NCBI GenBank assembly: GCA_964453075.1
Contig: CAYVNM010000006.1
Span: 1-51,911, forward strand
Reading direction: 5' to 3'
DNA from: an uncultured Candidatus Saccharibacteria bacterium
Lineage (GTDB): Bacteria > Patescibacteriota > Minisyncoccia > Phycocordibacterales > DATDWN01
Length of the DNA: 51,911 nucleotides
Of the stretch, positions 1-51,894 are shown in pieces. Position numbers and translations under genes: made by a program. The notes beneath the pieces were generated by a model that saw nothing but the letters and a program-made list of their open reading frames with translations, made no database searches and was not told where the DNA came from. The stretch's first letter is position 1, and the number at the start of each line of letters is the position of its first letter.

Positions 1-54
1 ACCTACGACCTTATCCTTAAGAGGGATCTGCTCTACCAGCTGAGCTATGGGCGC
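1..54 (-). tRNA. tRNA-Lys(CUU), 5' portion only (cut by window edge)
   Basis: Reverse complement reads GCGCCCA TA GCTC AGCTGGTA GAGC A GATCC CTCTTAA GGATA AGGTC GTAGGT: acceptor, D arm and a 7-nt anticodon loop with CUU. Confidence 0.8.
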
Positions 55-60
55 AAAAAC

Positions 61-234
61 TTATATTACCACAAAACGAAGTTTCGTCGGAGCCTCGGTG
101 GGGTAATCTTTTTGAATTTTATTTCGTCGTCACTCAATAAAATTCAAAACGCAGATTTCCGACAAACGCTGGTGCGTCTGTAGACCGTAAATCTGTTCAA
201 TTCCCACGCGTAAAGCGTTGCTTTACTCGCGGGC
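61..234 (-). ncRNA. tRNA-Leu-trailing, tRNA-derived structured element (copy A)
   Basis: Starts directly after tRNA-Leu(UAA). GCCCGCGAG[hairpin]GTGGGAATTGAAC is an inverted copy of that tRNA's 3' acceptor/T-arm. Two further hairpins follow, then a closing CCCAC strand. Same architecture as 7913-8056. The functional strand is uncertain. Confidence 0.45.
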
Positions 235-319
235 TGGTGCCCGAGGTGGGAATCGAACCCACATCCCTTACGAGACACGATTTTAAGTCGTGCGCGTATA
301 CCAATTCCGCCACTCGGGC
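235..319 (-). tRNA. tRNA-Leu(UAA)
   Basis: Reverse complement reads GCCCGAG..CACGA CTTAAAA TCGTG..long variable arm..GTGGG TTCGATT CCCAC CTCGGGC A CCA. Type II cloverleaf with encoded CCA. Confidence 0.92.
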
Positions 320-351
320 AAACATCTACCAATACACAAAATATTTTTGTG

Positions 352-426
352 TGGAGGCCTGGGGCGGAATTGAACCGCCGTATAAAGATTTTGCAGATCT
401 TTGCCTTACCACTTGGCTACCAGGCC
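352..426 (-). tRNA. tRNA-Cys(GCA)
   Basis: Reverse complement reads GGCCTGG TA GCCA AGTGGTAA GGCA A AAGAT CTGCAAA ATCTT ..GGCGG TTCAATT CCGCC CCAGGCC T CCA. Confidence 0.92.
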
Positions 427-434
427 TATAAATT

Positions 435-758
435 CTAGCCTTGACTCAACAAATCGTCAATTTTTTGGCGATTTTTTTCTCCGTCATCTATCTCAAAATC
501 CATTTGAGGAATTCTTCCTAGTCTAGAGTTTTCTTTTACAAATTCCTTGAATTCGCTTCTTTTTCTTTTTGCAAATTCCAAAGCGGTTTTTTCGAAGTCT
601 ATCGGAAAAACCGTAAACAAAATAGTAGCATATTTTCCATCTCTCGTTAAATTAACATCTGTAACAGTTATAAGAGAAGAGCCATTTCCGTTTAAAGATA
701 AAAATCTAGCCCCTAAATCATGAAGAATCTCTTTTATTTTTTCGTTTCTATTAGCCAT
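435..758 (-). CDS. rbfA: ribosome-binding factor A
   Basis: 107 aa ORF immediately downstream of infB (classic infB-rbfA order). RbfA-like size and pattern (..ITVTDVNLTRDGKYATILF..). Confidence 0.8.
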   Translation of the reverse strand: MANRNEKIKEILHDLGARFLSLNGNGSSLITVTDVNLTRDGKYATILFTVFPIDFEKTALEFAKRKRSEFKEFVKENSRLGRIPQMDFEIDDGEKNRQKIDDLLSQG

Positions 759-2273
759 CTATTTTTCAGTAATTATAAAGCTCTCTATAATATCTCCTGG
801 AGCAATTTCCACTGTGGCTACAACCATAGATCCAAATTCTTTTCCTTCTTTTACTTCATCCACAGAAACTTTTTGTTGTTGTAATTCACGTATTTTTCCT
901 TCTCCTATTTTTGCATCTTTACGTAGTATTTTTACCTGAGATCCGAGACCTATAGCTCCTTTTTCTACTCTACCACCAAAAATTTGTCTGTCTTTTATTT
1001 TACTAAACACTTTCAGAACTTTTATAACTCCTACAGTTTCTTCTGTTTTTATTTTTGGTGTTCTTGTTTCCAAAACTTCTTTCAACCACTCGTTCATTTT
1101 GTAAATAATGTCAAAAGTTTTTATCTCTATTTCGTTTCTGTCTGCAAGGTGTTTTGCTGGAGAATCTATTTTTACATTGAAACCTATAATTATTGCTTTT
1201 TCCTTTCCGTCGGCTAATCTTACATCATTTTCAGATATTGTACCTATCCCACAAGATATTATGTGAGCTGACATTCTGTCTGTGGTTAGTTTTTTTATTT
1301 CAGATGTCAAAGCTTCCAAACTACTACCAGTATCAGCCTTTATGATTACAGGTATAGAATTGGTCGAAGTTATAACATCGTCTGAATGATTATTAGTATT
1401 TTTATTTGAATTTCTGAAGATTCTTTCTTTTTCTATTTTTTCTCTGGCTTCGTCTCTGGTTTTATGTGTTTCAAATATGTCTCCCACTATGGGTAATTCA
1501 TCCCAACCTATTATTTTTACAGGACTAGAGAAAGTAGCTCTATCTATTTGTTTTCCCAAATAATTTTCCATAATTCTTACTGGAGCAGAGGCCGTACCAG
1601 ATGTTATATACATACCTTTTTCCAAGGTTCCATTTTTTATTATGCAGGTTGCAGATATTCCTTTTTTTATATCTCTGTTGCTTTCTATTATTGTTCCTTG
1701 AGCTGTAACTTCTGGATTTCCAGTCAGGTTTTCCATCTCTGATACAAGAATAATCATATCGAGTAAATCAGGTATACCTTCTCCTGTTTTTGCAGACAGT
1801 GCTACTACTGGAATGTCTCCACCATAGCCCTCTATATATATCTCGTTCTCAGTCAGACTTTGTTTTGTTCTATCTATATTTGCTTCAGGTTTGTCTATTT
1901 TATTTATAGCTATGATAAAAGGTGTATTTGCGTTTTTTATTGAGGATAAGGCTTCTAGTGTTTGGGGCTTCACACCATCTTCAGCTGAGACAACAAGTAC
2001 TACAACATCAGCAACGGATGCACCTCTTCGTCTTATGCCACAAAACGCCTCATGTCCTGGGGTATCTACAAAAGTTATGTTGTGTTTCTTACCTTCTTTT
2101 GATACATGCTCTACCTCGTATGCAGAGATGTGTTGGGTGATTCCACCCGCTTCATTTAATGGTTCTGAACTTTTACGTATATAGGAAAGAAGGGTTGATT
2201 TGCCGTGATCAATATGACCCATTATTGCCACAACAGGTCCGCGTTCTATAGTTTTTGTATTCGTAGTCTGCAT
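759..2273 (-). CDS. infB: translation initiation factor IF-2 (N-terminally short form)
   Basis: GTPase motifs GHIDHGKST, DTPGH and NKID, followed by the IF-2 C-terminal domains. 504 aa. Confidence 0.95.
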   Translation of the reverse strand: MQTTNTKTIERGPVVAIMGHIDHGKSTLLSYIRKSSEPLNEAGGITQHISAYEVEHVSKEGKKHNITFVDTPGHEAFCGIRRRGASVADVVVLVVSAEDGVKPQTLEALSSIKNANTPFIIAINKIDKPEANIDRTKQSLTENEIYIEGYGGDIPVVALSAKTGEGIPDLLDMIILVSEMENLTGNPEVTAQGTIIESNRDIKKGISATCIIKNGTLEKGMYITSGTASAPVRIMENYLGKQIDRATFSSPVKIIGWDELPIVGDIFETHKTRDEAREKIEKERIFRNSNKNTNNHSDDVITSTNSIPVIIKADTGSSLEALTSEIKKLTTDRMSAHIISCGIGTISENDVRLADGKEKAIIIGFNVKIDSPAKHLADRNEIEIKTFDIIYKMNEWLKEVLETRTPKIKTEETVGVIKVLKVFSKIKDRQIFGGRVEKGAIGLGSQVKILRKDAKIGEGKIRELQQQKVSVDEVKEGKEFGSMVVATVEIAPGDIIESFIITEK

Positions 2274-2306
2274 TGTGGTAATTGGTTACTGGGCTCATGA
2301 TTAAAT

Positions 2307-2777
2307 TTATTTTTCTAGATTTTTCTTAGCTCCATCTACTACCTCTTTTTCCTCATCCGTTAATTCAAAGTTACTTTCAAATTTTATAAGAGGTTTTGAA
2401 AATACACTAACTCTGTCTCTTGAATACAAGCTTGAAATAACAACCCCATCTCCGTTTTCACTTAAAAATGAAGTTGAGAAACTTTGACTACCTCCTTCTC
2501 CAGTTCCTTTAAATGGATTGAAGCGTATTGTCTCTACTGCTTGTATACTACGATTCAGACGCTTCTCTATATTTATGAAATATGAGACAGATTCCTTTTG
2601 GAACTCATTTAATTTGTCTAAATTGTTGTGTGCTGAGACGATAGAGTCCTCCAAGGATTTTGCGTTTTTACCCCTCAAAAGTCTCCACATCTTTATTTCA
2701 AGACGTACAATCCAACCAACAAGTATTACAATACAGGATATTAGGCCATATGTAACAAATAGAGGGTTGGATAGCAT
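2307..2777 (-). CDS. DUF4446-like membrane-anchored protein
   Basis: N-terminal TM helix, a coiled region, then RFNPF..G.GG.QSFS..L.ENGDGVVISSLYSR, typical of DUF4446. Start moved to the internal ATG at 2777 because the upstream part of ORF 2307..2867 overlaps a palindromic repeat arm. Confidence 0.55.
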   Translation of the reverse strand: MLSNPLFVTYGLISCIVILVGWIVRLEIKMWRLLRGKNAKSLEDSIVSAHNNLDKLNEFQKESVSYFINIEKRLNRSIQAVETIRFNPFKGTGEGGSQSFSTSFLSENGDGVVISSLYSRDRVSVFSKPLIKFESNFELTDEEKEVVDGAKKNLEK

Positions 2778-2840
2778 CCTGCTGATTATTACACATATTA
2801 TTGTCTTTTGCAAAATAAAAGGTATAGTAAATTGTAATCT

Positions 2841-2997
2841 CCTCTTCCTGTTTTGTTTCTGGAGCAACCTGTAATTTCCCAGCGGAAATTACAGGCCAGT
2901 CCTCGGTCGCACTCGTCAAGAGCCCTCGCTTTGCTCGGGTCGTTGACAAGACCGGCTTGCGACCTGCGGGGTCTCCAGAAACAAAAAGGAACAGGAG
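2841..2997. repeat. structured palindromic element, copy 1 (GC-rich core, AT-rich outer arms)
   Basis: Outer arms CTCTTCCTGTTTTGTTTCTGGAG / CTCCAGAAACAAAAAGGAACAGGAG. Inner hairpins CCTGTAATTTC-ccagcg-GAAATTACAGG and GGTCGCA..TGCGACC. Core AGTCCTCGG..AAGAGCCC..GGGTC..TGACAAGACC..GACCTGCGG is shared with 47465-47637. Confidence 0.6.
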
Positions 2998-3013
2998 ATT
3001 TTAGAGAAGAAGA

Positions 3014-4186
3014 ATGAAAATAAACAAAAACAAAAAAAGAATATTTTTAGATTATGCGTCCATTACACCAATAGATAAAAGGGTGAAAGACAAAATGGAC
3101 CAGATTCAGAAATCTACTTTTGCGAACCCTTCTGCACTGTATGGGGAGGCCATGGTTGCCAAAGAGATTATGTTACGAGCTAGGGAAAATATAGCTCAAA
3201 TTTTACATACTCAAAGTAAAGAAATCATTTTCACGAGTGGTGGTACAGAGGGGAACAACCTGGCTATTCTGGGTGTTTTTCAAAAAAATAAAACAAAAAA
3301 TTTCACACCTCATTTTATTACGGTCTCCACTGAACATCCGGCAATCCTGGAGGTTTTCAAAGAGGTAGAGCGTAGGGGTGGGGAAGTAACAGTACTTCCA
3401 GTGGATGAGGATGGATTATTATCGCTTCAGGACCTCAGACAATCTTTAAAGAAAAATACAGTTCTCGTCAGTGTGTCCTATGCAAATAATGAAATAGGTA
3501 CGATACAACCTATACACAGTATCGCTAGAATCATAAAGGATTTCAGATTAAAAAATAATACAGTTTTTCCTTATTTACATACAGATGCTTGTCAGGCCGG
3601 GTTGTATTTATCCTTGGATGTATTGAAGCTTGGTGTGGACATGATGACTTTGGATGGTATAAAAATATACGGACCTAGAGGAAGTGGAATATTGTATGTC
3701 AAAAACAATGTAGAGATGGACCCTGTATTTTTTGGTGGTGGTCAGGAGAGAGGACTGCGAAGTGGGACAGAAAATGTAGCTAATATATCTGGTTTATCAT
3801 TGGCGTTTGAAATCGCTAACAAAATGCGTGATAAGGAGACTTTGAGACTAGGCAAAATACAGGATTATGCTATTGATAAGATATTAAATCTTTTTCCGAA
3901 ATCATCATTGAACGGTTCAAGAAAATACAGATTACCTAATAATGTAAATATTTGTTTTGATGGTCTAGATGCAGAATTTGCAGTAATTTCTTTAGACGTT
4001 GCAGGAATCTCAGCATCATACTCTTCTTCTTGTAGGACTTTGAAAGAGGATTCATCTTCATATGTGGTAGAAAGTTTGGGTAAGGAGGGTTGTGGTAAAT
4101 CTAGCCTACGTTTTACTTTCGGCAGAGAAACAAAAAAAAGTGATATAGATTTTTTGATTACTTCTCTAAAAAGGATTATGTTATAA
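3014..4186 (+). CDS. cysteine desulfurase (class V aminotransferase, NifS/IscS-like)
   Basis: FTSGGTEGNN, HTDACQA, PLP-lysine context LDGIKIYGPRGSG, LRSGTENV, C-terminal Cys loop. Confidence 0.85.
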   Translation: MKINKNKKRIFLDYASITPIDKRVKDKMDQIQKSTFANPSALYGEAMVAKEIMLRARENIAQILHTQSKEIIFTSGGTEGNNLAILGVFQKNKTKNFTPHFITVSTEHPAILEVFKEVERRGGEVTVLPVDEDGLLSLQDLRQSLKKNTVLVSVSYANNEIGTIQPIHSIARIIKDFRLKNNTVFPYLHTDACQAGLYLSLDVLKLGVDMMTLDGIKIYGPRGSGILYVKNNVEMDPVFFGGGQERGLRSGTENVANISGLSLAFEIANKMRDKETLRLGKIQDYAIDKILNLFPKSSLNGSRKYRLPNNVNICFDGLDAEFAVISLDVAGISASYSSSCRTLKEDSSSYVVESLGKEGCGKSSLRFTFGRETKKSDIDFLITSLKRIML

Positions 4187-7804: not shown

Positions 7805-7887
7805 GCGTAGGTGGTAGAGTGGTCAATTACAACAGACTGTAAATCTGTCGCCTTCGGGCTACGGGGGTTCAAATCCCTCCCTACGCA
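7805..7887 (+). tRNA. tRNA-Tyr(GUA)
   Basis: GCGTAGG..CAGA CTGTAAA TCTG..long variable arm CGCCTTCGGGCTAC..GGGGG TTCAAAT CCCTC CCTACGC A. No encoded CCA. Confidence 0.9.
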
Positions 7888-7888
7888 C

Positions 7889-7912
7889 AAAAAATCCCCG
7901 CAAGGGGATTTT
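7889..7912 (+). terminator. hairpin after tRNA-Tyr
   Basis: AAAATCCCC-gcaa-GGGGATTTT. Confidence 0.55.
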
Positions 7913-8251
7913 GTGCGTAGGAGCAAAACGAAGTTTTGCGTGAGGGATTTGAACGGATTAGCGGTTTACGCTCGCAGTAGCGAGTGTCGCTAATCCGGTG
8001 CCCAGAAAATTTCAATTCGACGGAATTGAAATTTTCGAGGGAAAATCCCTCCTACTGTTACGTAGGGATTTGAAGACCTTTGATAGTTTTTTGTGAGTTT
8101 ACGAAACAAAAAACAGAAGAGGCTAAAATAGTTTGTTAAACTATTTTAGAAGGTTGTCTATGTTTTTAGAGAGTAGCGAATAAAAACATAATACAACCTG
8201 AACTGAACTTGTAGAGTTTACCGAAACTGTAAGTTTCAAATCCCAAATCTT
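7913..8251 (+). ncRNA. tRNA-Tyr-trailing, tRNA-derived structured region (copy B plus extension)
   Basis: TGCGTAGGAG[CAAAACgaaGTTTTG]cgtGAGGGATTTGAAC is an inverted copy of the tRNA-Tyr 3' end. Hairpins GGATTAGCG..CGCTAATCC and GAAAATTTCAATTC-gacg-GAATTGAAATTTTC follow, with closing ATCCCTC-CTAC. Further T-arm fragments lie at 8062-8075 and 8234-8244, enclosing AT-rich hairpins. Confidence 0.45.
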
Positions 8252-21736: not shown

Positions 21737-21882
21737 AATTCCCAAAACCCGTCAACCTGGCAGGTTGACGGGTAGGGGTGGGTTTTCAACAGATTAGCAC
21801 TTGACACAAGTGCTTTTTTAGTATAATATATATAGCAGATTGTCAAGTCCGTTTCGGAGTCGGCTTACCCAGGGAGGTTCCC

Positions 21883-22053
21883 GTGCGCGCAACTCTACTG
21901 GCTTTGGCCACGGTGGTGCCAATTCGGCAGGCGCTTCTCTCGTGGTTTGGCAAAGATCTAGGTCTTTGGGCACTCGTGCTCTTCGGTGTCGTGGCGCTGT
22001 TCGTCAGCTATCGCATCAACCGGCGGAGGAACCCTCCTTCGTCAGCACTCTGA
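21883..22053 (+). CDS. hypothetical 56-aa hydrophobic protein (GC-rich cassette C4; GTG start)
   Basis: Not in the track. TTGACA(21801) with a TATAAT-like box. GGGAGG 5 nt before GTG 21883. Product MRATLLALATVVPIRQALLSWFGKDLGLWALVLFGVVALFVSYRINRRRNPPSSAL. Terminator CGCCGTTCGGT-ctagc-ACCGGACGGCG-TTTTCGTTTTT (22075-22112). Confidence 0.45.
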   Translation: MRATLLALATVVPIRQALLSWFGKDLGLWALVLFGVVALFVSYRINRRRNPPSSAL

Positions 22054-22168
22054 CCCAGGGTCAGTCGTCTCCAGCGCCGTTCGGTCTAGCACCGGACGGC
22101 GTTTTCGTTTTTATCTGGGGTGGTAAAAAATAAAAAAAAGTGTAATATGTAGAATGTTTACTAAACAT

Positions 22169-22215: not shown

Positions 22216-22504
22216 CTCGGGATGGGACCCGAGCGCAAGACCTTCTTCAGATATTTTATGAGCACAGCGAAATAAAATATCGAAAAGGTGTACTGCTCCT
22301 GTAAGGAGAGATAGGTATGGAGCGCAAGACCGGAGTCTGTCGAGATGAGGTGAGAAGTGATATTATCACTTCGCAAGACCTTGAACATTTTGTTATCAAA
22401 ATGTGAAAGGTGTACAGTTCTTGTAAAGAAGGGTCGCGAAAATTTTCTCCAGAAAATTATTTGTGACCGATTCCCGTTCATTAAAATTTGTTTGTTTCTA
22501 AAGC
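22216..22504 (+). repeat. structured repeat region between pseudo-tRNA-Gln and tRNA-Gln
   Basis: Three (G/T)CGCAAGACC boxes (22233, 22322, 22371). Two GAAAGGTGTAC boxes, each followed by a GTAA-loop hairpin (CTCCTgtaAGGAG / TTCTTgtaAAGAA). Several AT-rich hairpins. Confidence 0.4.
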
Positions 22505-22575
22505 TGGGAGATCGTCTAACGGTAGGACAGAGGCCTTTGAAGCCTTTAATTGGGGTTCGATTCCCTGTCTCCCAG
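22505..22575 (+). tRNA. tRNA-Gln(UUG)
   Basis: TGGGAGA TC GTCT AACGGTAG GACA GAGGC CTTTGAA GCCTT TAAT TGGGG TTCGATT CCCTG TCTCCCA G. Confidence 0.9.
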
Positions 22576-22650
22576 CTTTGGGCGGAAACAAATTTTAAAT
22601 CTAATTTCTTCCCATCCAGTTTGGGATAGTTTCGGATTTCTAGTAGGATT

Positions 22651-25493: not shown

Positions 25494-25693
25494 AGCTTGG
25501 TTTCTGTGCCTAGGTGTTCGGGGGCTGGCGCACTAAACGTCAGCCCCTTATTTTATTATAATATGTTCCAATTTTGTACCAGATTACTGGTACTATTTGA
25601 CATATTTAATTAATATGTTATTTTGTGTCTAGAACAGTCTGTCACCTAGACTTAAAAGTGGTGAGCTTGTCCGCGAGACATTGGAGAATCCAA

Positions 25694-26185
25694 ATGACCA
25701 GCAAAGAGATGCGTATTCGAGAGGGGAAGTTGTACAACGGGTTGATGAATGAAGTTCTCGTGGGAGATGATCCTGAAGTGTGGATCAACCGCCACGGGAT
25801 GGAAATGTCACTCGGGATCGCCATGGAGGGCATCTCCAATTACATTGAGGCGTGCTACTGGGTGAACGACAACCCTCTTCGACATCTGCGCAAGTCTTTC
25901 CCGGGCTTTACGTGGAAGTTCCACGAGGATGTGAGCCAGGCTAGGCTCGCATCCGTTCTTGGTGTCGCTGATTACATCTGGGTCGGAGGTCTTGTGGTCG
26001 GTGATGCTTTTGTCACTGCAACGCAGGTTCGCGATGCAAAACCTCGGGGTCTCTGCTTCCTTCCCAAGATCAATGAACACTGTGGTTGGAATAGGATGAT
26101 CAGAAGGGATCTCAGTCTTGTCGTTCCTGGTATTCGTTTCGTCCAGGACGGGAATGACAAGGACGCGAACACTGTGATCTGCTAG
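25694..26185 (+). CDS. hypothetical protein (GC-rich cassette C6)
   Basis: TTGACA promoter upstream. GGAGAA SD 5 nt before ATG 25694. 163 aa. Terminator GCCGCCCGAAAG..CTTTTGGGCGGC-TTTCTCTTTT. Confidence 0.55.
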   Translation: MTSKEMRIREGKLYNGLMNEVLVGDDPEVWINRHGMEMSLGIAMEGISNYIEACYWVNDNPLRHLRKSFPGFTWKFHEDVSQARLASVLGVADYIWVGGLVVGDAFVTATQVRDAKPRGLCFLPKINEHCGWNRMIRRDLSLVVPGIRFVQDGNDKDANTVIC

Positions 26186-30104: not shown

Positions 30105-30917
30105 TTATTGTTTTAACAAGTAGCTTACAGATAAAGTGTAAGTGTTTCCAGGAGCTATTAACTCTGGATCAGAAGTCAAACCACCTTTGTCTCTCATCAT
30201 AGGTTCAATACAAATGAAGTCTTTTTCTGGTTGGGACCATATCCATATTTTTTTATATTCGGCAGATGGGTTAATAACTAGAGTTCCTATAGTTGGTATT
30301 TCTATTTCTAAGACAGTAGATGAATCTTTTGTTTTTGGATTATCCACACAGATATATTCTCCATTGGACCAAAGTCCAATTTGTTCTTCTATAAATTTTC
30401 CTCCTTCAAAATTGAATTTGATGTTAGCTTTTTCCTCTCTTGGAACTTTGAAATATGGATGTAAGCCCATAGATAAAGGAAGGTTTTTTGATTGTTCTTT
30501 ATTTTCTACTTTTTCAATTATTGTGAAAGAGTCATTGTCCTCAAATCTGGTTTCGAATGTGAATTGAAAATCAAAAGGAAAAGATTGTTTATTTTTTTCT
30601 TCTGGCAGCAGGGTTTCTATAAAACCACTATCTCTTATTTCAGCTTTCCATTCAGAAGATGTTCTGGCGAATCCGTGTTCCTTTAAATTTGGGAAGTCGG
30701 GACTTTGTACTGGTCCAGCATTTGGAAATAGTATTGGGATACCCCCGTGAACACTAACAGCTGTATTTATAAAAGTTTCTTCTTCCATATATAAAATTTC
30801 TTTGCCTCGAAATTTTAGAGAGGTGATAATACCTCCTCTCTCTGGACAAAATGAAACCTCATTCCCGTTGTCTATTTTTATAGTTTCTATTTTTAGGTTG
30901 TTATTTTCGTTTGTCAT
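30105..30917 (-). CDS. aldose 1-epimerase (galactose mutarotase-like) family protein
   Basis: ERGG.I.SL...G.E.L, HGGIPILFPN.G, HGFAR, GLHPYF. Start at ATG 30917, which straddles the end of the 109-nt repeat. Confidence 0.7.
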   Translation of the reverse strand: MTNENNNLKIETIKIDNGNEVSFCPERGGIITSLKFRGKEILYMEEETFINTAVSVHGGIPILFPNAGPVQSPDFPNLKEHGFARTSSEWKAEIRDSGFIETLLPEEKNKQSFPFDFQFTFETRFEDNDSFTIIEKVENKEQSKNLPLSMGLHPYFKVPREEKANIKFNFEGGKFIEEQIGLWSNGEYICVDNPKTKDSSTVLEIEIPTIGTLVINPSAEYKKIWIWSQPEKDFICIEPMMRDKGGLTSDPELIAPGNTYTLSVSYLLKQ

Positions 30918-31024
30918 CCCGTTAGAGATAGGTCTCACCATAGTTCGCATAATGATTCCTACCGAAATTAATTTATAATATTACAATTACCACCTTGTGA
31001 TTTCCCGTGAATCTCTAACGGGAT
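30916..31024 (-). repeat. 109-nt element with 14-bp terminal inverted repeats, copy 1 (5' leader of the epimerase-family gene)
   Basis: In gene orientation: ATCCCGTTAGAGAT...(18-nt variable)...ATTATAAATTAATTTCG.TAGGAATCAT..GAACTATGGTGAGACCT ATCTCTAACGGGAT|GA. Nearly identical to 39338-39446. Confidence 0.6.
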
Positions 31025-31074
31025 CATATATGTAAAGTATACCAGTTTGGTTTTTAAAATGATAAAATGGTTAT

Positions 31075-32481: not shown

Positions 32482-33156
32482 CTACTTGTCTGCAACCTCC
32501 CTCATGTCCTGCTTGGTCAGCCCAAGCTCGTTCGGGCTGAACTGCCAGGCTCGGAGGATGTGTTGGAGGTAACCTCGTGCGTCCCCACTGCCTTCAAGCA
32601 GGCGAGGACGCAGAACTGCAACCTCTTTCCTGGCCATGACCAGTGCTTCGTTGCGTAGCTGGTCAGGACTGACCCTAAATGTGTCAGGTGAAGTGTCCAT
32701 CCTTGAGACGAACTCCAGAAACACTTCAAGACCTTGCAGGTCTTGATCTCGTCTGGCAACGATGAGGAGGTTTGACGCCTCATGCACCATTGCGAGCTGG
32801 ATCTCGTGCTTGAGGTCTGGGTAACTCGTAGACGGAGAGAGCTCATCGAGCCGTCCCAGCAGAACCTCCATCTTACGGAGGTTCTCCTCTATCTGGCTTG
32901 AGTTCCGCTCGTCTCCCTCGAAAACCTCCCTCGTCCATCCTTGGCTTGGTGTGTCCCGCCGCACAAGGTTGAACTGCTTCTCAATCTCCTGGTACTTCTC
33001 GATGACCACCGTGATTTCCTGGGCCTTCTGCTCCAGTCGGGTCATTGTTGTGGTGGCAGAGGAGGGTGTGGCAATATCTTTGGGTTTTTCCGTGAGGTAT
33101 AAACCTCCGAGTGCCATAACGCAGATTGCAATGATGACACCGAGATTTTTCTTCAT
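32482..33156 (-). CDS. hypothetical exported protein (GC-rich cassette C9)
   Basis: Minus-strand TTGACA(33246-33241)-17 nt-TATACT. GGAGG 4 nt before the ATG. Signal-like MKKNLGVIIAICVMALGGLYL. 224 aa. Terminator GGGAAGAG-aaatc-TTCTTCCC followed by TCTTTTTTT. Confidence 0.6.
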   Translation of the reverse strand: MKKNLGVIIAICVMALGGLYLTEKPKDIATPSSATTTMTRLEQKAQEITVVIEKYQEIEKQFNLVRRDTPSQGWTREVFEGDERNSSQIEENLRKMEVLLGRLDELSPSTSYPDLKHEIQLAMVHEASNLLIVARRDQDLQGLEVFLEFVSRMDTSPDTFRVSPDQLRNEALVMARKEVAVLRPRLLEGSGDARGYLQHILRAWQFSPNELGLTKQDMREVADK

Positions 33157-34486: not shown

Positions 34487-34804
34487 ATGAGTCGATCTGT
34501 CAGGGCAGAAGGCAAGCTTCCAAAAGGAAGCAAACCAATCCCAGAGGCAATCAGTGCTCTGAAGCACGTCGTGGACCTTCCGGAAGTTCGGAAGGTGGTT
34601 CACGATCGTCCTATGGTTGTCAGGTGCGGCAAGCCGTACTTGGCAGTCAGCGCTGTCTGCAAGGATGGTCTCAGGGTTCGGATTCGTGGTGGTGGCCAGA
34701 TTCAGCACATCTTCGTGAAGTGCGAAAGTCCCATGGTCATCAAGGATCTCATCGAGAGTGCCTGGGCCAGAAGGCGCCCTGGAGCCTTCAGCAAGCGTTC
34801 CTAG
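34487..34804 (+). CDS. hypothetical protein (GC-rich cassette C10)
   Basis: TTGACT(34422)-17 nt-TATGGT(34445). 105 aa basic protein. Terminator ACGACC..GGTCGT-TTTTTTT. Confidence 0.55.
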   Translation: MSRSVRAEGKLPKGSKPIPEAISALKHVVDLPEVRKVVHDRPMVVRCGKPYLAVSAVCKDGLRVRIRGGGQIQHIFVKCESPMVIKDLIESAWARRRPGAFSKRS

Positions 34805-44839: not shown

Positions 44840-47464
44840 ATGAAAAAAGAAAAACAAGATCTAATCATAGTTAAGGGTGCTAGAACGCACAATCTTAAAA
44901 ATATAACTTTGGAAATGCCACGAAACAAAATGGTGGTTTTTACTGGTTTGTCTGGTTCGGGTAAATCGTCTTTAGCCTTTGATACTATTTTTGCCGAGGG
45001 ACAGAGAAGGTATGTGGAATCTCTTTCTTCTTATGCCCGTCAGTTTTTGAGACAGATGCAGAAACCAGATGTAGATGAAATATCAGGACTTTCTCCAGCT
45101 ATTTCTATAGATCAAAAATCACGATCAAATAATCCACGCTCTACCGTTGCTACTATTACAGAGATTTATGATTATCTACGTATTTTGTATTCACGCATAG
45201 GGCATCCACACTGTTTGGTTTGTGGAGATGAAATAAAAAAACTTTCAAACGAGGAAATTAAAAATTTCATTTTAGAAAAAATTGATGCAAAGAAAAAAAC
45301 AATAACAACTAGTACAAAAAAAATTCCTCTTCCTATCTATGTTGAGATTTTTGCACCAGTGGTTAGAGGAAGAAAGGGAGAGTATTACCAACTGCTTTAT
45401 GACCTACTCGGTAAGGGCTATTCACATGTATTAGTAGACGGTGTTCGCAAATCACTTCGTGAAAGAATAGAAATGACAAAAACCAAAAGACATTCCATAG
45501 ATGTTCTGGTGGACAGCATTTCTCTTTTGGATTTTAAAACAGATGTTAAGAGTGCCGAGGAAAGATTGGCTGAGGATTTGGAAAAAGCTCTAAACGAATC
45601 AGATGGACAGGTAAAAATAATGTTTCGTGATGTCGCGCAGGAGTCTAATAAAGAATACATTCCTGAAGAATTTTTCATGTCTTCAAAACTGTCCTGTCCA
45701 AAAGATGGTTATTCATATCCAGAAGTGGAACCAAGACTATTTTCTTTTAATTCTCCTTATGGAGCATGTCCCGAATGTAATGGTTTGGGAACAAGACATT
45801 TTTTTGGAAAAGAACTTTGCCCTAAGTGTAACGGCGCGAGACTTCGTGAGGAAGCTTTGCATGTTCTGATAGGAAACAAAAATATAGTTGAACTAACTAG
45901 AATGTCTATCAAAGACGCTTATGATTTTGTAATGAATTTGAAACTCACTGAACGTGAAAAAAATATTTCAAAAGTCGTGATGAGAGAAATAGAATCCAGA
46001 CTTCTTTTTATGATAAATGTTGGTATTGAATATTTGTCTCTTGATCGTAGAGCTCATACTCTTTCTGGTGGTGAAGCTCAGCGTATTCGTCTAGCCTCAC
46101 AGTTAGGCTCTGGTTTGGTTGGTGCTTTATACGTTTTGGATGAACCAACTATTGGATTGCATTCTAGAGATAACGACAGACTTGTTAAAACACTTCTCAA
46201 TCTTCGTGATTTGGGTAATACAATAATAGTAGTGGAGCATGATGAGGATACAATATTTGCTTCTGATTATATTGTTGACATAGGTCCAGGTGCTGGTGTT
46301 CATGGAGGTAATGTTATTGTGGCCGACTATTTGGATGATTTGATTACTGCCAAGAAAAATATTTCAGGTTCTGTCACTTTGGATTATTTGAGAGGGGACA
46401 GGGTTTTGGAAGTGCCAGAAGAAAGGAGAGACACACCAAAAGGAGAGTTGTCTATTCGTGGTGGAAAAATATTTAATATTAAAAATTTGAATGTGGATAT
46501 TCCGCTTGGTAGATTTGTGGCGGTGACGGGAGTTTCTGGTTCTGGTAAGTCTTCTTTTGTCTACGAAATTTTGCATAGAAATCTACAAGCCAGATTTGAG
46601 AGAAAATATAGATCTGCGGAAATATACAATTGTAAGTCTTTTACAGGTACGGAATATCTTGGCAGGGCTATTTTGATAGATCAATCTCCGATAGGACGTA
46701 CCCCACGTTCAAATCCAGCTACATATACTGGAGCGTGGTCTTTTATACGTGATTTGTTTGCGGAAACTGCAGAAGCACGTGCTCGTGGGTGGAAAGCAAA
46801 TAGATTTTCTTTTAATGTGAAGGGTGGAAGGTGTGAGACTTGTCAGGGTAATGGAATGATAGAAGTTGAAATGCATTTTCTTCCTACCGTATATGTGCCT
46901 TGCGATGTTTGTAAAGGTAAAAGGTTTATGAAGGAGACTTTGGAGGTGCACTATAAAAAGAAAAATATTTACGATGTGTTAAAAATGACAGTTGAAGAAG
47001 CATTAAAGTTCTTTGAGGACATTCCATCTATTGCTGATAGATTGAAAACTCTGGACGAAGTTGGTCTTGGATATTTGGAACTCGGCCAGTCTGCTACTAC
47101 TTTGTCAGGTGGTGAGGCACAGAGAGTGAAAGTGTCATCAGAGTTGTTTCGTCCACACTTACAAAAAACAATTTATCTTTTAGACGAGCCAACAATCGGT
47201 TTGCACTATGAAGATGTCAAAAAATTAATTGAGATTTTGCAGAAGTTGGTAAACAAAGGAAATACGGTTGTTGTTATCGAGCACAATATGGATATTATAA
47301 AATCTTGCGACTATGTTATAGACATAGGTCCAGAAGGTGGTGATGGGGGAGGACAAATCGTTGCCAAAGGAACTCCAGAGGAAATTGCGAATAATGAAAA
47401 ATCATACACAGGTATTTATTTGAAAAAAGCTTTGAAGCAGTTTAGGGCGTATAGGAAGGGGTAA
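44840..47464 (+). CDS. uvrA: excinuclease ABC subunit A
   Basis: GARTHNLKN, two ABC modules ([18 protein letters not shown]; LSGGEAQR twice), CxxC zinc modules. Start at ATG 44840 rather than the track's GTG 44783. Confidence 0.95.
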
Positions 47465-47637
47465 AAAATCTCTTCCTCACCAAAACTTTTTCAGAGACGT
47501 TCGTCATTCCAGCGAATGACTCACTCTAGTCCTCGGCCATGACTTGTAAAGAGCCCCTCACTTCGTTCGGGGTCTATGACAAGACCATGCTCATGACCTG
47601 CGGATGCTCTGAAAAGATTTTGGCTCAACGAGATTTT
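47465..47637. repeat. structured palindromic element, copy 2
   Basis: Outer arms AAAATCTC..CCAAAACTTTTTCAGAG / CTCTGAAAAGATTTTGG..GAGATTTT. Inner hairpins GTCATTC-cagc-GAATGAC and GGCCATGA..TCATGACC. The core is shared with 2841-2997. Confidence 0.6.
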
Positions 47638-47711
47638 TTAAAGAGAATTAATTTTTAAAATGGAAATGGGCGCCGAGGGTTAGTCGGCGCCCGGGGTGGG
47701 TGTACTGTTGA

Positions 47712-47993
47712 TCAGCGCACTGCGCTGATCTTGAGGAAGCACTGAGCCTCTTCGAGGAGACTCCAAACGGACGAAGCTTGGGCCGTGTAGTCGTGCCTGA
47801 TGGGTGACCTGACTACCATAAGCTCGCTCATGAGTATGAGAGCGGCAGCCCAACCTGGCTGAAGTTGGAATCGTGCCACACTCTCCTTGTCAGTATCGTT
47901 GACGCCATTCTCGATGAAGACCTCGTTCTTCTTGAGGCCATCGCTGAGCCTCTTTGTCAGGATGGCCAACTGCTTCCTGTCGGTCTGGTTCAT
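47712..47993 (-). CDS. hypothetical protein (GC-rich cassette C14)
   Basis: GGAGGA SD 5 nt before the ATG. TATAAA -10 upstream. 93 aa. Terminator GGGCGCCGA-ctaaccc-TCGGCGCCC (47660-47690). Confidence 0.55.
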   Translation of the reverse strand: MNQTDRKQLAILTKRLSDGLKKNEVFIENGVNDTDKESVARFQLQPGWAAALILMSELMVVRSPIRHDYTAQASSVWSLLEEAQCFLKISAVR

Positions 47994-48087: not shown

Positions 48088-48321
48088 TCAGTGAACCGTT
48101 TGGGATCCTACTGTGTCATCCATCGCGTTCCAATAGAAGACAATATTGTGGAATGTAGCACCACGTTCCTTTAGGTGTAACAACAGTAGAGCCGTTACCA
48201 CGTCGTCCGTTATGCTCCTGGATCTTACTCCATGGATGGGTATGGTTTCCGGATAGTTCTCCGGCGTCTCGATCTCTTCTCCTTCAAGGGTTTCGTACCA
48301 CAGCTTGACATGGATGGTCAT
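48088..48321 (-). CDS. hypothetical protein (GC-rich cassette C15)
   Basis: AGGAGG 6 nt before ATG 48321 (the track uses a TTG two codons upstream). 77 aa acidic protein. Terminator AGAGCGCC..GGCGCTCT (48062-48090). Confidence 0.5.
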   Translation of the reverse strand: MTIHVKLWYETLEGEEIETPENYPETIPIHGVRSRSITDDVVTALLLLHLKERGATFHNIVFYWNAMDDTVGSQTVH

Positions 48322-48367
48322 GTACAACCTCCTTGATTAATATTAGCATGTAAAGTATTAATAGCAT

Positions 48368-51004: not shown

Positions 51005-51331
51005 CTACCAGAAGAGGATCTTGTGTGCGCAGATGATTTTGCGCAATCTTTTCCTGTAAGTCTTCTTCTCGGCCGAGGTGAGTGGAACGACCCTGAGAAG
51101 GAGTGTGTTTCTGCCAGGTGCCTTTCTGGGTTTTGACACAACCCATCCAGGCACAACCGCGTAGCTTCCGGTGTGGTTGTTGTAGGCTTGGAAGAAGATG
51201 ATGGAACCCTTTCTCACCTTCAACTCTCTCGGCGGGTCAAAGATCTGGCCATCTGTACCCGGAATCTCCAGGTATAGGCTATTCAAGTATGACTTCGGGT
51301 CATACTCGTAGATCTGAAATTTCTTGCTCAT
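51005..51331 (-). CDS. hypothetical protein (GC-rich cassette C17)
   Basis: Minus-strand TTGACT-17 nt-TACTGT. GAGGAGAA SD. 108 aa with a basic C-terminus. Confidence 0.55.
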   Translation of the reverse strand: MSKKFQIYEYDPKSYLNSLYLEIPGTDGQIFDPPRELKVRKGSIIFFQAYNNHTGSYAVVPGWVVSKPRKAPGRNTLLLRVVPLTSAEKKTYRKRLRKIICAHKILFW

Positions 51332-51399
51332 CGGTGTATGGTTCTCCTCTCGCAGTACAGTACAATTAAATCAATATTTAGTCAAAGATATTTAGGGAT

Positions 51400-51457
51400 A
51401 TGAGAAAACCCCGCGACACTTGAAGCGCGGGGCTTCCTTGTGTGCGGGGTGGGGGCG
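51400..51457 (-). terminator. shared ~55-nt terminator module, copy 2 (after C18)
   Basis: ATGAGAAAACCCCGCGACACTT..GAAGCGC.GGGCTTC..TGTGCGGGG aligns with 50941-51003 with only a few differences. Confidence 0.55.
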
Positions 51458-51460
51458 GAG

Positions 51461-51748
51461 TTAGATCCCGCCGACGTCGATGAGACTCTCATCGAACGGC
51501 GGAAGGTCGATCTCCTCGCCGGTAGTCTCGCGGACTGCACCAGCAAAAGCGGTGTAGTGGAGGAACAGAAGTCCTTCCACGATTTCACGCGCCATCGCCT
51601 TCTGTTCGTCCGTGGGAGGGAGTGGTGGGGTAGAGAATGTTCTTCCCGTCAACATGAAGATGATGGTGGGGGAGCTTCTCTCGTCGTAGTAGAGAGTGCT
51701 CCAGACCGCCTCTTCCAGTTCCGGCGAAACGACAGGTTCGCTTGCCAT
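51461..51748 (-). CDS. hypothetical protein (GC-rich cassette C18)
   Basis: Minus-strand TTGACT(51814-51809)-17 nt-TATAAT(51791-51786). AAGGAGG 9 nt before ATG 51748. 95 aa acidic protein. The track's longer ORF (to 51871) would start inside the promoter. Confidence 0.55.
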   Translation of the reverse strand: MASEPVVSPELEEAVWSTLYYDERSSPTIIFMLTGRTFSTPPLPPTDEQKAMAREIVEGLLFLHYTAFAGAVRETTGEEIDLPPFDESLIDVGGI

Positions 51749-51894
51749 GTTTCGTGCCCTCCTTAGGCACAGCAATCTATTTACAATTATAGCACTAATT
51801 GAGTTTATAGTCAATACTATTTTGCAATATCTGAGAGTAACTACTGATTTATGTACTTGTGAGATTAACAAAAGTTTGATAATCTAGTTTAGTT

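What the first reader, a model, noticed from the sequence alone, without database searches (positions are those of the whole stretch)
2841..2997. About 160-nt nested-hairpin element with a GC-rich conserved core and covarying stems (copy 1 of 2)
Copies at 2841-2997 and 47465-47637 share a core: AGTCCTCGG..(A)AGAGCCC(C)TC..loop..(C)GGGTC..TGACAAGACC..GACCTGCGG.

At least four helices differ in sequence between the copies but keep their pairing:
- CCTGTAATTTC/GAAATTACAGG versus GTCATTC/GAATGAC, with a similar CAGCG-type loop (ccagcg versus cagc).
- GGTCGCA/TGCGACC versus GGCCATGA/TCATGACC.
- CTGGAG/CTCCAG versus TCAGAG/CTCTGA.
- Long AT-rich outermost arms that are unrelated between the two copies.

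This fits either a structured RNA family or a hairpin-targeting miniature mobile element that landed in the loop of pre-existing AT-rich palindromes. The genomic contexts differ. Copy 1 lies in a divergent promoter region upstream of the desulfurase gene. Copy 2 lies in a convergent terminator region after uvrA.
Basis: seen in the sequence. Interest (0 to 1): 0.65.

Follow-up and report, generated by a model that had tools for sequence, protein, structure and literature searches.

The report
Structured 173-nt repeat of Patescibacteria
The two look-alike stretches are real copies of an apparently uncatalogued, about 173-base repeated element of ultra-small (Patescibacteria) bacteria that folds into a conserved three-armed hairpin, is present or absent at the same site in related genomes, and has no known function.

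Summary
Copies at 2836-3000 and 47465-47637 share a conserved core and covarying helices, and both fold far better than shuffles (z -7.3 and -4.1).

Pattern scans and synteny walks found about 20 more copies in Patescibacteria genomes and metagenomes. Seventeen distinct copies support one structure: a long interrupted outer stem, a three-way junction, a short C(A/G)GC hairpin, and a long arm with an invariant irregular helix and a 7-nt bulge. 95% of cells are paired and 28 of 43 pairs have double changes (0 of 500 shuffles).

No Rfam 15 family matches, and I found no paper describing it.

It behaves as a discrete repeat:
- other loci join it exactly at 47464|47465 and 47637|47638;
- metagenome depth over it is 2-5x its flanks;
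- three relatives have no element after uvrA;
- it lies in both orientations between unrelated housekeeping genes;
- degenerate copies exist.

The copy upstream of the cysteine desulfurase is kept in all relatives checked, behind a conserved promoter, but its arms and core subtype are swapped.

The "landed in a pre-existing palindrome" idea is not supported.

Best reading: a structure-dependent, MITE-like mobile repeat carried in mRNAs. The mobilising enzyme, the active strand and the function are unknown.

The parts
2801..2828 (+). Promoter-like TTGTCT-16 nt-TATAGT, ending about 8 nt before copy 1. It belongs to the locus, not to the repeat unit.
   Evidence: The whole stretch is conserved in orthologous loci down to 72% protein identity (alignment A4).
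2836..3000 (+). Copy 1, whole unit. The strand is that of the model; the active strand is not settled.
   Evidence: (128.6 bits).
2838..2864 (+). Copy 1, P1 5' arm. This lineage-specific 'W' arm is shared only with L019.
2973..2998 (+). Copy 1, P1 3' arm. Its sequence AACAAAAAGGAACAGGAGA also survives downstream of a usual-armed copy in L023.
2868..2895 (+). Copy 1, P2 hairpin: 12 bp with a CAGC loop.
2898..2906 (+). Copy 1, conserved AGTCCTCGG: the junction plus the 5' strand of the invariant irregular helix.
2905..2911 (+). Copy 1, P3 5' strand GGTCGCA. It pairs with 2958-2964.
2912..2950 (+). Copy 1, P4 (CTCGTCAA 2912-2919 with TTGACAAG 2943-2950) enclosing the variable P5 hairpin (2920-2942).
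   Evidence: P5 is absent in L020 and L029.
2951..2957 (+). Copy 1, conserved bulge ACCGGCT (family consensus ACCRUGCU).
2958..2972 (+). Copy 1, P3 3' strand TGCGACC followed by the conserved CTGCGGGGT, which is the 3' strand of the irregular helix.
47462..47464 (+). uvrA stop codon, directly abutting copy 2.
47465..47637 (+). Copy 2, whole unit of 173 nt with the family's usual arms.
   Evidence: 175.3 bits. Contigs from other loci diverge at 47464|47465 and 47637|47638.
47465..47496 (+). Copy 2, P1 5' arm: AAAATCTC, internal loop TTCCTCA, CCAAAA, TTTTTCAGAG.
47607..47637 (+). Copy 2, P1 3' arm: CTCTGAAAAG, TTTTGG, internal loop CTCAAC, GAGATTTT.
47503..47520 (+). Copy 2, P2 hairpin GTCATTC-CAGC-GAATGAC.
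47528..47606 (+). Copy 2, long arm:
- AGTCCTCGG 47528-47536
- P3 47535-47542 with 47591-47598
- P4 47543-47550 with 47576-47583
- P5 47551-47575
- bulge ACCATGC 47584-47590
- CTGCGGATG 47598-47606
47523..47550 (-). Promoter-like TTTACA-16 nt-TAGAGT inside the element on the opposite strand. In usual copies it reads TTGACA-16 nt-TAGAGT/TAGAAC.
   Evidence: In L016 the same site (10 of 12 matches) faces the adjacent AI-2E transporter gene. This is a consensus match only.
47668..47692 (-). Intrinsic terminator of the convergent small GC-rich ORF. In relatives it follows uvrA directly, and this marks the empty site.

Best explanation
The two stretches belong to an uncatalogued family of discrete repeats, about 173 nt long, found in Patescibacteria (Parcubacteria/Paceibacteria-type and Saccharibacteria-labelled genomes).

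**Fold of one unit, as a single strand.**
- P1: an outer stem of about 28 bp, AU-rich, usually interrupted by a conserved internal loop (UUNCUCA / CUCRAC).
- P1 closes a three-way junction.
- P2: a short hairpin with a C(A/G)GC loop.
- A long arm made of an invariant irregular helix (UCCUCGG / CCUGCGGR, with a U bulge and a U.C mismatch), then P3, a 7-nt bulge ACCRUGCU, P4 (GUCAA/UUGAC), and an optional variable hairpin P5.

**Shown.**
- The fold is under selection.
- The unit has fixed ends and is multi-copy.
- It is present or absent at orthologous sites.
- It sits in either orientation, tightly wedged between unrelated housekeeping genes.
- It decays in some places.
- It is exchanged between loci.

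**Inferred.**
- It is a non-autonomous, MITE-like mobile element. Its spread depends on the folded single strand (ssDNA or RNA) being recognised by an enzyme supplied in trans, so only copies that keep the junction and the helices leave descendants.
- In the host it is carried passively inside neighbouring transcripts.
- At the desulfurase locus it has become the fixed 5' leader, because the conserved promoter puts the transcription start at its first base and leaves no room for another promoter before the ATG.
- After uvrA it is a 3' extension.
- Its long duplex probably acts there as a processing, stability or termination signal, as described for ERIC and Correia elements.
For: **Structure.** Fold z scores are -7.3 and -4.1. 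22 of 43 pairs are compensatory on a MAFFT alignment. On 17 copies, 95% of cells are paired, 28 pairs have double changes, and 0 of 500 shuffles reach this; slid controls give 34-49%.

**Family.** Four genome loci and 11 true metagenome loci were found. Copies found by synteny rather than by pattern (L019, L020, L024, L027, L023, L029) keep the same architecture.

**Discrete, multi-copy unit.** In DNA metagenomes, contigs from other loci diverge exactly at 47464|47465 and 47637|47638, and depth over the unit is 2-5x the flanks. Assemblies break inside it (L023, L029, L030).

**Presence or absence.** There is no element after uvrA in L025, L026 and L027/L028, whose uvrA is 89-92% identical. L026 comes from the same contig as L024, which does have the locus-1 copy.

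**Different sites in different genomes.** One copy lies upstream of xseA in L027. Neighbours include uvrA, an ABC-F ATPase, two aaRS genes, MreB, S9, L25, SecG, MsrB, an AI-2E transporter, YgjP and BrnT.

**Orientation.** Roughly 10 loci are sense and 3 are antisense to both neighbours, with 0-10 nt of spacing.

**No own promoter.** None was found in front of six copies that were scanned.

**Decayed copies.** L015 2702-2850 and L027 71-242.

**Copy exchange.** L023's locus-1 copy resembles window copy 2 and retains a remnant of copy 1's 3' arm. A related strain has a usual-armed unit replacing exactly 2834-3013.

**Co-transcription.** Metatranscriptome contigs run from uvrA into the element and from the element onward.
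Against: - No transposase, recombinase or reverse transcriptase was found next to any copy, and no longer element with the same ends was seen.
- No target-site duplication or conserved target is visible in about 16 flank pairs.
- The arms covary instead of being conserved in sequence. That is not what a transposase binding double-stranded terminal repeats would produce.
- About 35 unpaired or irregular positions are conserved across classes of Patescibacteria while the stems have diverged to saturation. This is the pattern of long-lived functional RNAs such as ribozymes or riboswitch aptamers.
- The desulfurase-locus copy is retained in every relative checked (98, 81, 79 and 72% protein identity) behind a conserved promoter. 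This argues for host function at that site.
- Every filled/empty comparison could equally be a deletion.
- The pattern scans required three exact blocks, so the diversity, copy number and host range of the family are underestimated.
Confidence: 0.5

Rival explanations
1. It is a functional structured RNA (sense strand): a protein-binding scaffold or a new self-cleaving or other catalytic RNA. It would be released from host transcripts through its long P1 stem. The scattered copies would be working genes or modules, not selfish DNA.
For: - The conserved junction, irregular helix and bulge sit among freely covarying stems of variable length, and P5 is optional. This is typical of ribozymes and aptamers.
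- A conserved promoter ends about 8 nt before the unit at the desulfurase locus, and synteny is stable there.
- The region is represented in metatranscriptome assemblies.
- No Rfam family matches, so it would be a new class.
Against: - Three of about 13 loci are antisense to both abutting genes, with no room for and no prediction of an own promoter. Other copies with room upstream also lack one.
- In L001 the unit lies behind the rpsI terminator.
- Helices are almost purely Watson-Crick. In the core helices there are 7 independent A.C/C.A events against 1 G.U on the + strand, the opposite of what + strand RNA selection predicts.
- RNA contig depth over copy 2 is like that of its neighbours, not that of an abundant stable RNA.
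- Distribution is patchy, and the element is absent after uvrA in close relatives.
Confidence: 0.3
2. It is a metabolite- or ion-sensing riboswitch, or another dedicated cis-regulator of the downstream cysteine desulfurase gene.
For: Copy 1 is a conserved 5' leader of the desulfurase gene in all relatives checked.
Against: - Most other copies lie downstream of genes, or between genes of unrelated function, and in both orientations.
- P1 is a duplex of 25-30 bp with no alternative expression platform.
- Copy 2 follows uvrA and faces a convergent gene.
Confidence: 0.03
3. One reading: a GC-rich mini-element that targets hairpins and landed in the loops of pre-existing, unrelated AT-rich palindromes.
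For: - The arms of the two window copies differ.
- One locus, L015 2702-2850, has the arms with an AT-rich interior.
- L023 shows a usual-armed unit next to a remnant of another arm.
Against: - The same arms accompany the core at unrelated loci and in different genomes.
- Empty uvrA sites have no palindrome.
- The L015 interior keeps recognisable core remnants.
- Repeat boundaries in metagenomes lie outside the arms, at 47465 and 47637.
Confidence: 0.04
4. It is a chance resemblance of two ordinary hairpins or terminators.
For: None beyond the AT-rich arms.
Against: - Model scores are 128.6 and 175.3 bits (E 1e-31 and 1e-43) for the two window copies, which were part of the model's training alignment; copies found independently by synteny score 96-170 bits.
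- About 20 copies are found elsewhere, with covariation.
- The terminator scan does not call either copy.
Confidence: 0.01

Closest known systems
ERIC / IRU elements of Enterobacteriaceae (about 127-bp imperfect palindromes; PMC3184786)
   Same: Both are small intergenic units found in either orientation and co-transcribed with neighbours. Both fold into a long imperfect hairpin, are present or absent at orthologous sites, and have no transposase identified. ERIC is reported to affect mRNA stability.
   Different: - ERIC is a simple hairpin. It has no three-way junction and no invariant junction or bulge nucleotides.
- ERIC-type repeats are reported with TA flanks and target duplications. None is seen here.
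- The host group is different.
- Here the stems have diverged to saturation while the junction is conserved.
Correia elements (CREE) of Neisseria (PMC3184786)
   Same: Both are units of 100-160 bp with terminal inverted repeats, lying next to or between genes and transcribed with them. Correia elements carry promoter activity. Here there is an internal TTGACA-16 nt-TAGAGT match, and a -35-like TCGACA lies near the 3' end.
   Different: - Correia elements have conserved terminal-repeat sequences and TA duplications; here the arms covary and no duplication is seen.
- The promoter matches here are only consensus hits.
REPINs mobilised by RAYT transposases (PMC3116915)
   Same: Both are non-autonomous hairpin-forming repeats in which compensatory changes across the hairpin are common, and the unit of selection is the folded repeat. 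This is a precedent for structure-dependent spread without target duplication.
   Different: - REPINs are two inverted REP sequences with two-fold symmetry. This unit is asymmetric: the reverse strand scores 15-40 bits against 96-194.
- This unit is branched.
- No RAYT or IS200-like gene was seen near any copy, and whole genomes were not examined.
Retron msr-msd non-coding RNA
   Same: The topology is the same: a stem formed by the two ends, one short hairpin, then one long hairpin, about 150-200 nt in all.
   Different: No reverse transcriptase gene lies next to any of about 15 loci (gene tables). P1 is far longer than retron a1/a2 repeats. The comparison rests on my own knowledge of retrons.
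Rfam structured RNAs (6S, SRP, RNase P, tmRNA, known self-cleaving ribozymes, HEARO/IS605-orfB RNAs)
   Same: Comparable size and degree of covariation.
   Different: No match on either strand, even at E <= 10 in stretches of 261 to 401 nt around the window copies and a canonical copy. The element is multi-copy and patchily distributed, unlike the universal RNAs.

Membership tests
Any Rfam 15 family | Covariance-model score at or above the family's gathering cut-off | tested here: not met
   Only tRNAs were found in the window. Nothing was found in L001-L004. Targeted scans at E <= 10 of both window copies and of a canonical copy give only noise of at most 17 bits.
MITE (miniature inverted-repeat transposable element) | Terminal inverted repeats flanking a short non-coding core | tested here: met
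   The arms are 25-30 nt and pair (I2, 70). However, they covary between copies instead of being conserved in sequence.
MITE (miniature inverted-repeat transposable element) | Target-site duplication flanking the unit | tested here: not met
   Flanks of about 16 copies were read by eye. No consistent direct repeat was found. Apparent TA flanks occur in some copies and cannot be told apart from extension of the palindrome.
MITE (miniature inverted-repeat transposable element) | Several copies per genome, and insertion polymorphism between related genomes | tested here: met
   Two copies lie in 52 kb of the window and two in one MAG. Depth over the unit is 2-5x the flanks. The uvrA site is empty in three relatives.
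MITE (miniature inverted-repeat transposable element) | A related autonomous element or transposase sharing the ends | not testable with these tools
Whole genomes could not be scanned with the model.
ERIC/Correia-type transcribed intergenic repeat | Lies in transcribed intergenic space and is part of neighbouring mRNAs | tested here: inconclusive
   Spacing to flanking ORFs is 0-10 nt. Metatranscriptome contigs bridge uvrA, the element and the downstream region. These are unstranded contigs and DNA carry-over is possible.
REPIN | Two inverted REP sequences (two-fold symmetry) and an associated RAYT gene | tested here: not met
   The reverse strand scores 15-40 bits against 96-194 for the forward strand. 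The core is branched and asymmetric. The presence of a RAYT gene in these genomes was not tested.
Riboswitch / dedicated cis-regulatory leader | Consistent 5'-UTR position upstream of functionally related genes | tested here: not met
   Neighbours are unrelated housekeeping genes. Many copies lie downstream of genes, and three are antisense.
Intrinsic terminator | GC-rich stem directly followed by an unpaired U-tract | tested here: not met
   The scan calls neither copy. The base of the stem is AU-rich, and the U-run pairs with the 5' A-run.
Retron msr-msd | Reverse transcriptase gene adjacent to the non-coding RNA | tested here: not met
   Gene tables and Pfam scans of the flanks show none.
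Integron attC site | R''/R' core sites RYYYAAC ... GTTRRRY at the ends of the palindrome | tested here: not met
   Read directly from the arms: no such boxes are present. The neighbours are housekeeping genes, not cassettes. The consensus is from my own knowledge.

The most novel reading that the evidence does not exclude
The conserved three-way junction, irregular helix and bulge form an active site or a specific recognition surface. One possibility is a new class of self-processing or protein-recruiting RNA that punctuates the densely packed transcripts of ultra-small bacteria. The other is the recognition fold of a new kind of bacterial mobile element that moves as a folded single strand, ssDNA or RNA. 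On that second reading, the opposite-strand TTGACA-16 nt-TAGAGT would form a duplex -35 box with a single-stranded -10 box, that is, a hairpin promoter.
Probability: 0.3. Interest if true: 0.8.

Novelty: new variant of a known kind. Interest (0 to 1): 0.6.

Why it matters
Patescibacteria make up a large share of bacterial diversity, yet almost nothing is known about their non-coding RNAs or their mobile DNA.

This element is small, strongly covarying and easy to model. It would be a ready entry for RNA-family databases and would stop such regions being left unannotated.

If it is mobile, it is a tractable case of a repeat whose fitness depends on a branched fold rather than on terminal sequence. 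It also marks recombination and assembly break points in these genomes: several contigs end inside it.

If the RNA is the active agent, it would be a new RNA class, with a conserved core worth testing for cleavage or protein binding.

Tried and rejected
- **Rfam on both strands.** Gathering threshold plus E <= 10 on three copies: nothing.
- **More copies in the window.** Mismatch searches and a model search with filters off: only the two.
- **Viral contigs.** Three patterns, covering the core, a relaxed core and the arms: no hit.
- **Chance hits.** L005 and L008 from the metagenome scan were discarded by eye.
- **Resemblance to the 3' end of 16S rRNA** (GUCGUAACAAGG...ACCUGCGG, recalled from memory). 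The local alignment is no better than 15-22% of shuffles, so I rejected it.
- **Own promoter in front of copies.** Found only at the desulfurase locus, not at L016, L003, L017, L014, L001 or L009.
- **Target-site duplication or conserved target.** None found.
- **Strand assignment from wobble pairs.** There were 13 G.U (7 of them at one terminal pair) against 18 A.C. This gives no support for the + strand. The - strand RNA of copy 2 actually folds better.
- **Pseudoknot between the P2 loop and the bulge.** Three or four possible pairs but no covariation, so I dropped it (alignment).
- **Empty allele in metagenome contigs at the uvrA site.** None seen.
- **Flanks of another locus seen in those contigs.** They are not in the window or in the held loci.
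- **Pfam on GC-rich small ORFs.** Looking for a mobilising enzyme: only a ClpP-like hit.
- **Literature.** Six searches found no description of the element, and a survey of ncRNAs in 50 bacterial genomes does not cover these phyla.

Full report
**1. Observation**

The two stretches are real and related. Three conserved blocks occur exactly, and only, at the two sites in the 51.9-kb window:
- AGTCCTCGG at 2898-2906 and 47528-47536;
- TGACAAGACC at 2944-2953 and 47577-47586;
- GACCTGCGG at 2961-2969 and 47595-47603.

The two stretches align at 77% column identity. Each folds into a long hairpin with a branched interior, far better than dinucleotide shuffles. Copy 1 gives -78.8 kcal/mol (z -7.3) and copy 2 gives -54.6 kcal/mol (z -4.1); 0 of 200 shuffles match either.

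**2. A family**

Rfam 15 reports only tRNAs in the window. Targeted scans of both copies at E <= 10, and later of a canonical copy, give only noise.

A three-block pattern found four loci in GTDB representative genomes:
- two in one MAG labelled Saccharibacteria;
- one in a Minisyncoccia MAG;
- one on a contig binned as Nitrospira, whose neighbours look patescibacterial.

The same kind of pattern found 13 metagenome loci, of which 11 are true members and two are chance hits. Viral contigs gave none.

Protein homologues place the window in Parcubacteria/Paceibacteria-type Patescibacteria. The sequencing runs that hold it are mostly wastewater and activated sludge.

**3. Structure**

A MAFFT alignment of 13 distinct copies gives an RNAalifold consensus of 43 pairs, 22 of them with compensatory changes. 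A covariance model built from that alignment scores the two window copies at 175 and 129 bits and finds no further copy in the window, even with filters off.

On 17 distinct copies aligned to the model:
- 95% of cells are standard pairs, against 34-49% when partners are slid by 1-3 columns;
- 28 pairs carry double changes;
- none of 500 shuffles reaches the observed values.

The model-fitted alignment leans towards the structure, but the MAFFT result is independent of it. Six copies were found by synteny rather than by pattern, so they are free of the ascertainment that makes the three blocks look invariant. They keep the same architecture (L019, L020, L023, L024, L027, L029).

The architecture is:
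- P1, about 28 bp and AU-rich, usually with a conserved internal loop UUNCUCA/CUCRAC;
- a three-way junction;
- P2, 6-12 bp, with a C(A/G)GC loop closed by C-G;
- a junction strand ending in UCUAG;
- an invariant irregular helix UCCUCGG/CCUGCGGR, with a bulged U and a U.C mismatch;
- P3, 7-8 bp and freely covarying;
- a 7-nt bulge ACCRUGCU;
- P4, GUCAA/UUGAC plus 3-4 covarying pairs;
- a variable hairpin P5.

In a second core subtype (L020, L029), P5 is replaced by a 10-nt loop AACGGGRUGC.

**4. Behaviour in genomes**

*A discrete, multi-copy unit.* In DNA metagenome assemblies that hold the window's organism, contigs from other loci match the unit and diverge exactly at 47464|47465 and 47637|47638. 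Depth over the unit is 2-5 times that of its flanks. Several assemblies end inside the element.

*Presence or absence.* uvrB-uvrA-uvrC synteny is conserved in relatives whose UvrA is 89-92% identical, but none of L025, L026 or L027/L028 has the element after uvrA. There the stop codon is followed within 6-20 nt by the GC-rich terminator of a convergent small ORF. L026 and L024 come from the same 99-kb contig, so that genome has the desulfurase-locus copy but not the uvrA copy. L027 instead has a degraded copy upstream of xseA.

*Context.* Neighbours are unrelated housekeeping genes: uvrA, an ABC-F ATPase, two aminoacyl-tRNA synthetases, MreB, S9, L25, SecG, MsrB, an AI-2E transporter, YgjP and BrnT. 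Spacing to flanking ORFs is often 0-10 nt. About ten loci are co-oriented with a neighbour, and three (L003, L013/L016, L017) are antisense to both neighbours.

*Decay and exchange.*
- L015 2702-2850 has the usual arms around an AT-rich interior that keeps only fragments of the core.
- L010 combines the 5' flank of L004 with the core and 3' flank of L001. This is either recombination between copies or an assembly chimera.

**5. The desulfurase locus**

The order RbfA-IF2-DUF4446 <- -> desulfurase-protease-ClpB is conserved. Every relative examined has an element in the same place and orientation; these relatives are 98, 81, 79 and 72% identical in the desulfurase.

The 60 nt upstream of the element are almost unchanged. 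They contain TTGTCT-16 nt-TATAGT on the + strand, ending about 8 nt before the unit, and a divergent TTGCAA-17 nt-AATAAT for DUF4446. Only 14 nt separate the unit from the ATG, so the desulfurase mRNA must start at or near the first base of the element and carry it as its leader. This is an inference.

The element itself is not stable at this locus:
- The window and L019 have unique arms.
- L020 has a third, again covarying, arm pair and the P5-less core.
- L024, L023, L029 and L030 have the usual arms.
- L023's copy resembles window copy 2 in P2, P3 and P5, and is followed by a remnant of copy 1's 3' arm.
- A co-occurring strain, about 95-99% identical in the flanks, has a usual-armed unit replacing exactly 2834-3013.

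So the site is always occupied, but the occupant is exchanged.

**6. RNA or DNA, and which strand**

Metatranscriptome assemblies contain contigs that bridge uvrA into the element and the element into the downstream region, at depths like the neighbours. These are unstranded contigs and may include DNA.

No own promoter is predicted in front of six other copies. One of them, L001, sits behind the rpsI terminator.

The helices are almost purely Watson-Crick. On the + strand there are 13 G.U cells, seven of them at one terminal pair, against 18 A.C cells. In the core helices there are seven independent A.C/C.A events against one G.U. This is the opposite of what selection on + strand RNA predicts, though the numbers are small.

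The reverse strand of copy 2 folds better as RNA (-67.1 kcal/mol, z -5.2). The unit also folds significantly with DNA parameters (z -3.9).

I therefore treat the folded single strand as what selection sees. Whether it is RNA or ssDNA, and which strand, remains open.

**7. Explanation**

The combination points to a non-autonomous, MITE-like repeat: fixed ends, several copies, filled and empty sites, both orientations, unrelated neighbours, decayed copies, exchange between loci, and a patchy distribution across classes of Patescibacteria. It is comparable in lifestyle to ERIC and Correia elements (PMC3184786).

The covarying arms and branched core mean that spread must depend on the fold rather than on terminal sequence. 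The precedent is REPINs, where compensatory changes across the hairpin are common and a RAYT enzyme acts in trans (PMC3116915).

Three things are missing: no mobilising enzyme, no target duplication and no autonomous relative was found. About 35 conserved unpaired or irregular positions are conserved, which is what one sees in ribozymes and aptamers. I therefore give the 'functional RNA class' rival substantial weight (0.3).

A riboswitch is excluded by context, and chance is excluded by the statistics.

**8. Comparison and novelty**

No defining test of any Rfam family, retron, attC site, REPIN or intrinsic terminator is met. The MITE definition is met for inverted ends, copy number and polymorphism. 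It is not met for target duplication, and it could not be tested for an autonomous partner.

I found no description of the element in six literature searches.

I rate it a new variant of a known kind: a structured intergenic repeat with an unusually elaborate, conserved core. There is a 0.3 chance that it is something more, either a new RNA class or a new structure-dependent mobility mechanism.

Noticed in passing
window 22481-22598: tRNA-Gln (22505-22576) is embedded in a 31-nt leader/trailer inverted repeat. This extends its acceptor stem by about 24 bp (fold z -5.1). The inner 15 nt of the leader resemble the 5' arm of copy 1 (4 matches against 0.8 expected). It could be a processing stalk, or another cargo in similar arms.
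   Followed up: partly
window 7867-7954 and 195-258: Inverted partial copies of the 3' half of a tRNA (T arm plus acceptor strand) lie just beside tRNA-Tyr and tRNA-Leu. These look like the att-type scars of integrative elements.
   Followed up: no
window 47712-47993(-), 48088-48327(-), 21840-22133, 25625-26185, 32482-33156(-), 34487-34804, 51005-51871(-); L025 12701-13428; L026 12690-13100; L027 10880-11090: Small ORFs in a 36% GC genome have no Pfam hit; most of those measured are 50-57% GC (48088-48327 was not measured). The uvrA-uvrC spacer holds different small GC-rich minus-strand ORFs, apparently hydrophobic, in each relative, and most are followed by a GC-rich terminator. It looks like a variable hotspot.
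   Followed up: partly
window 47523-47550(-); L016 2689-2716; L009 3618-3647(-): The conserved P4 helix reads TTGACA on both strands. On the opposite strand it lies 16 nt from the conserved TAGAGT/TAGAAC, and in L016 this promoter-like site faces the abutting AI-2E transporter gene. In L009 the TCGACA of the 3' arm combines with a flanking TATAAT (11 of 12 matches) in front of a BrnT toxin gene. These are consensus matches only.
   Followed up: partly
alignment A5 (17 copies): Mismatches in the helices are mostly A.C/C.A rather than G.U on the model strand: seven events against one in the core helices. This unexplained asymmetry would fit the opposite strand being the folded one.
   Followed up: partly
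L015 2702-2850 (+), 320 nt from the intact copy at 3171-3344 (-): A unit with the usual arms has an AT-rich interior that keeps only fragments of the core. It contains a perfect 34-nt palindrome (ACATAAGATTCTAGCATATGCTAGAATCTTATGT) where P2 would be.
   Followed up: partly
L010 versus L004 and L001: L010 joins the ABC-F gene flank of L004 to the core and 3' flank of L001 through the shared 5' part of the element. This is either recombination between copies or an assembly chimera at the repeat.
   Followed up: no
window 1-4000: GC skew changes sign, from about -0.1/-0.18 to +0.2, at the divergent gene pair where copy 1 sits. I could not separate a gene-strand effect from a replication-related switch. 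I saw no DnaA-box-like sequences by eye.
   Followed up: no
window 30904-31036: A 14-bp perfect inverted repeat (CCCGTTAGAGAT / ATCTCTAACGGG, within 26-nt arms) brackets about 81 nt of AT-rich divergent intergenic DNA (fold z -3.4). It may be a pair of operator sites.
   Followed up: partly
L020 329-1012: A LAGLIDADG-type homing endonuclease ORF (weak Pfam hit) lies next to rbfA in one relative of the window's genome.
   Followed up: no
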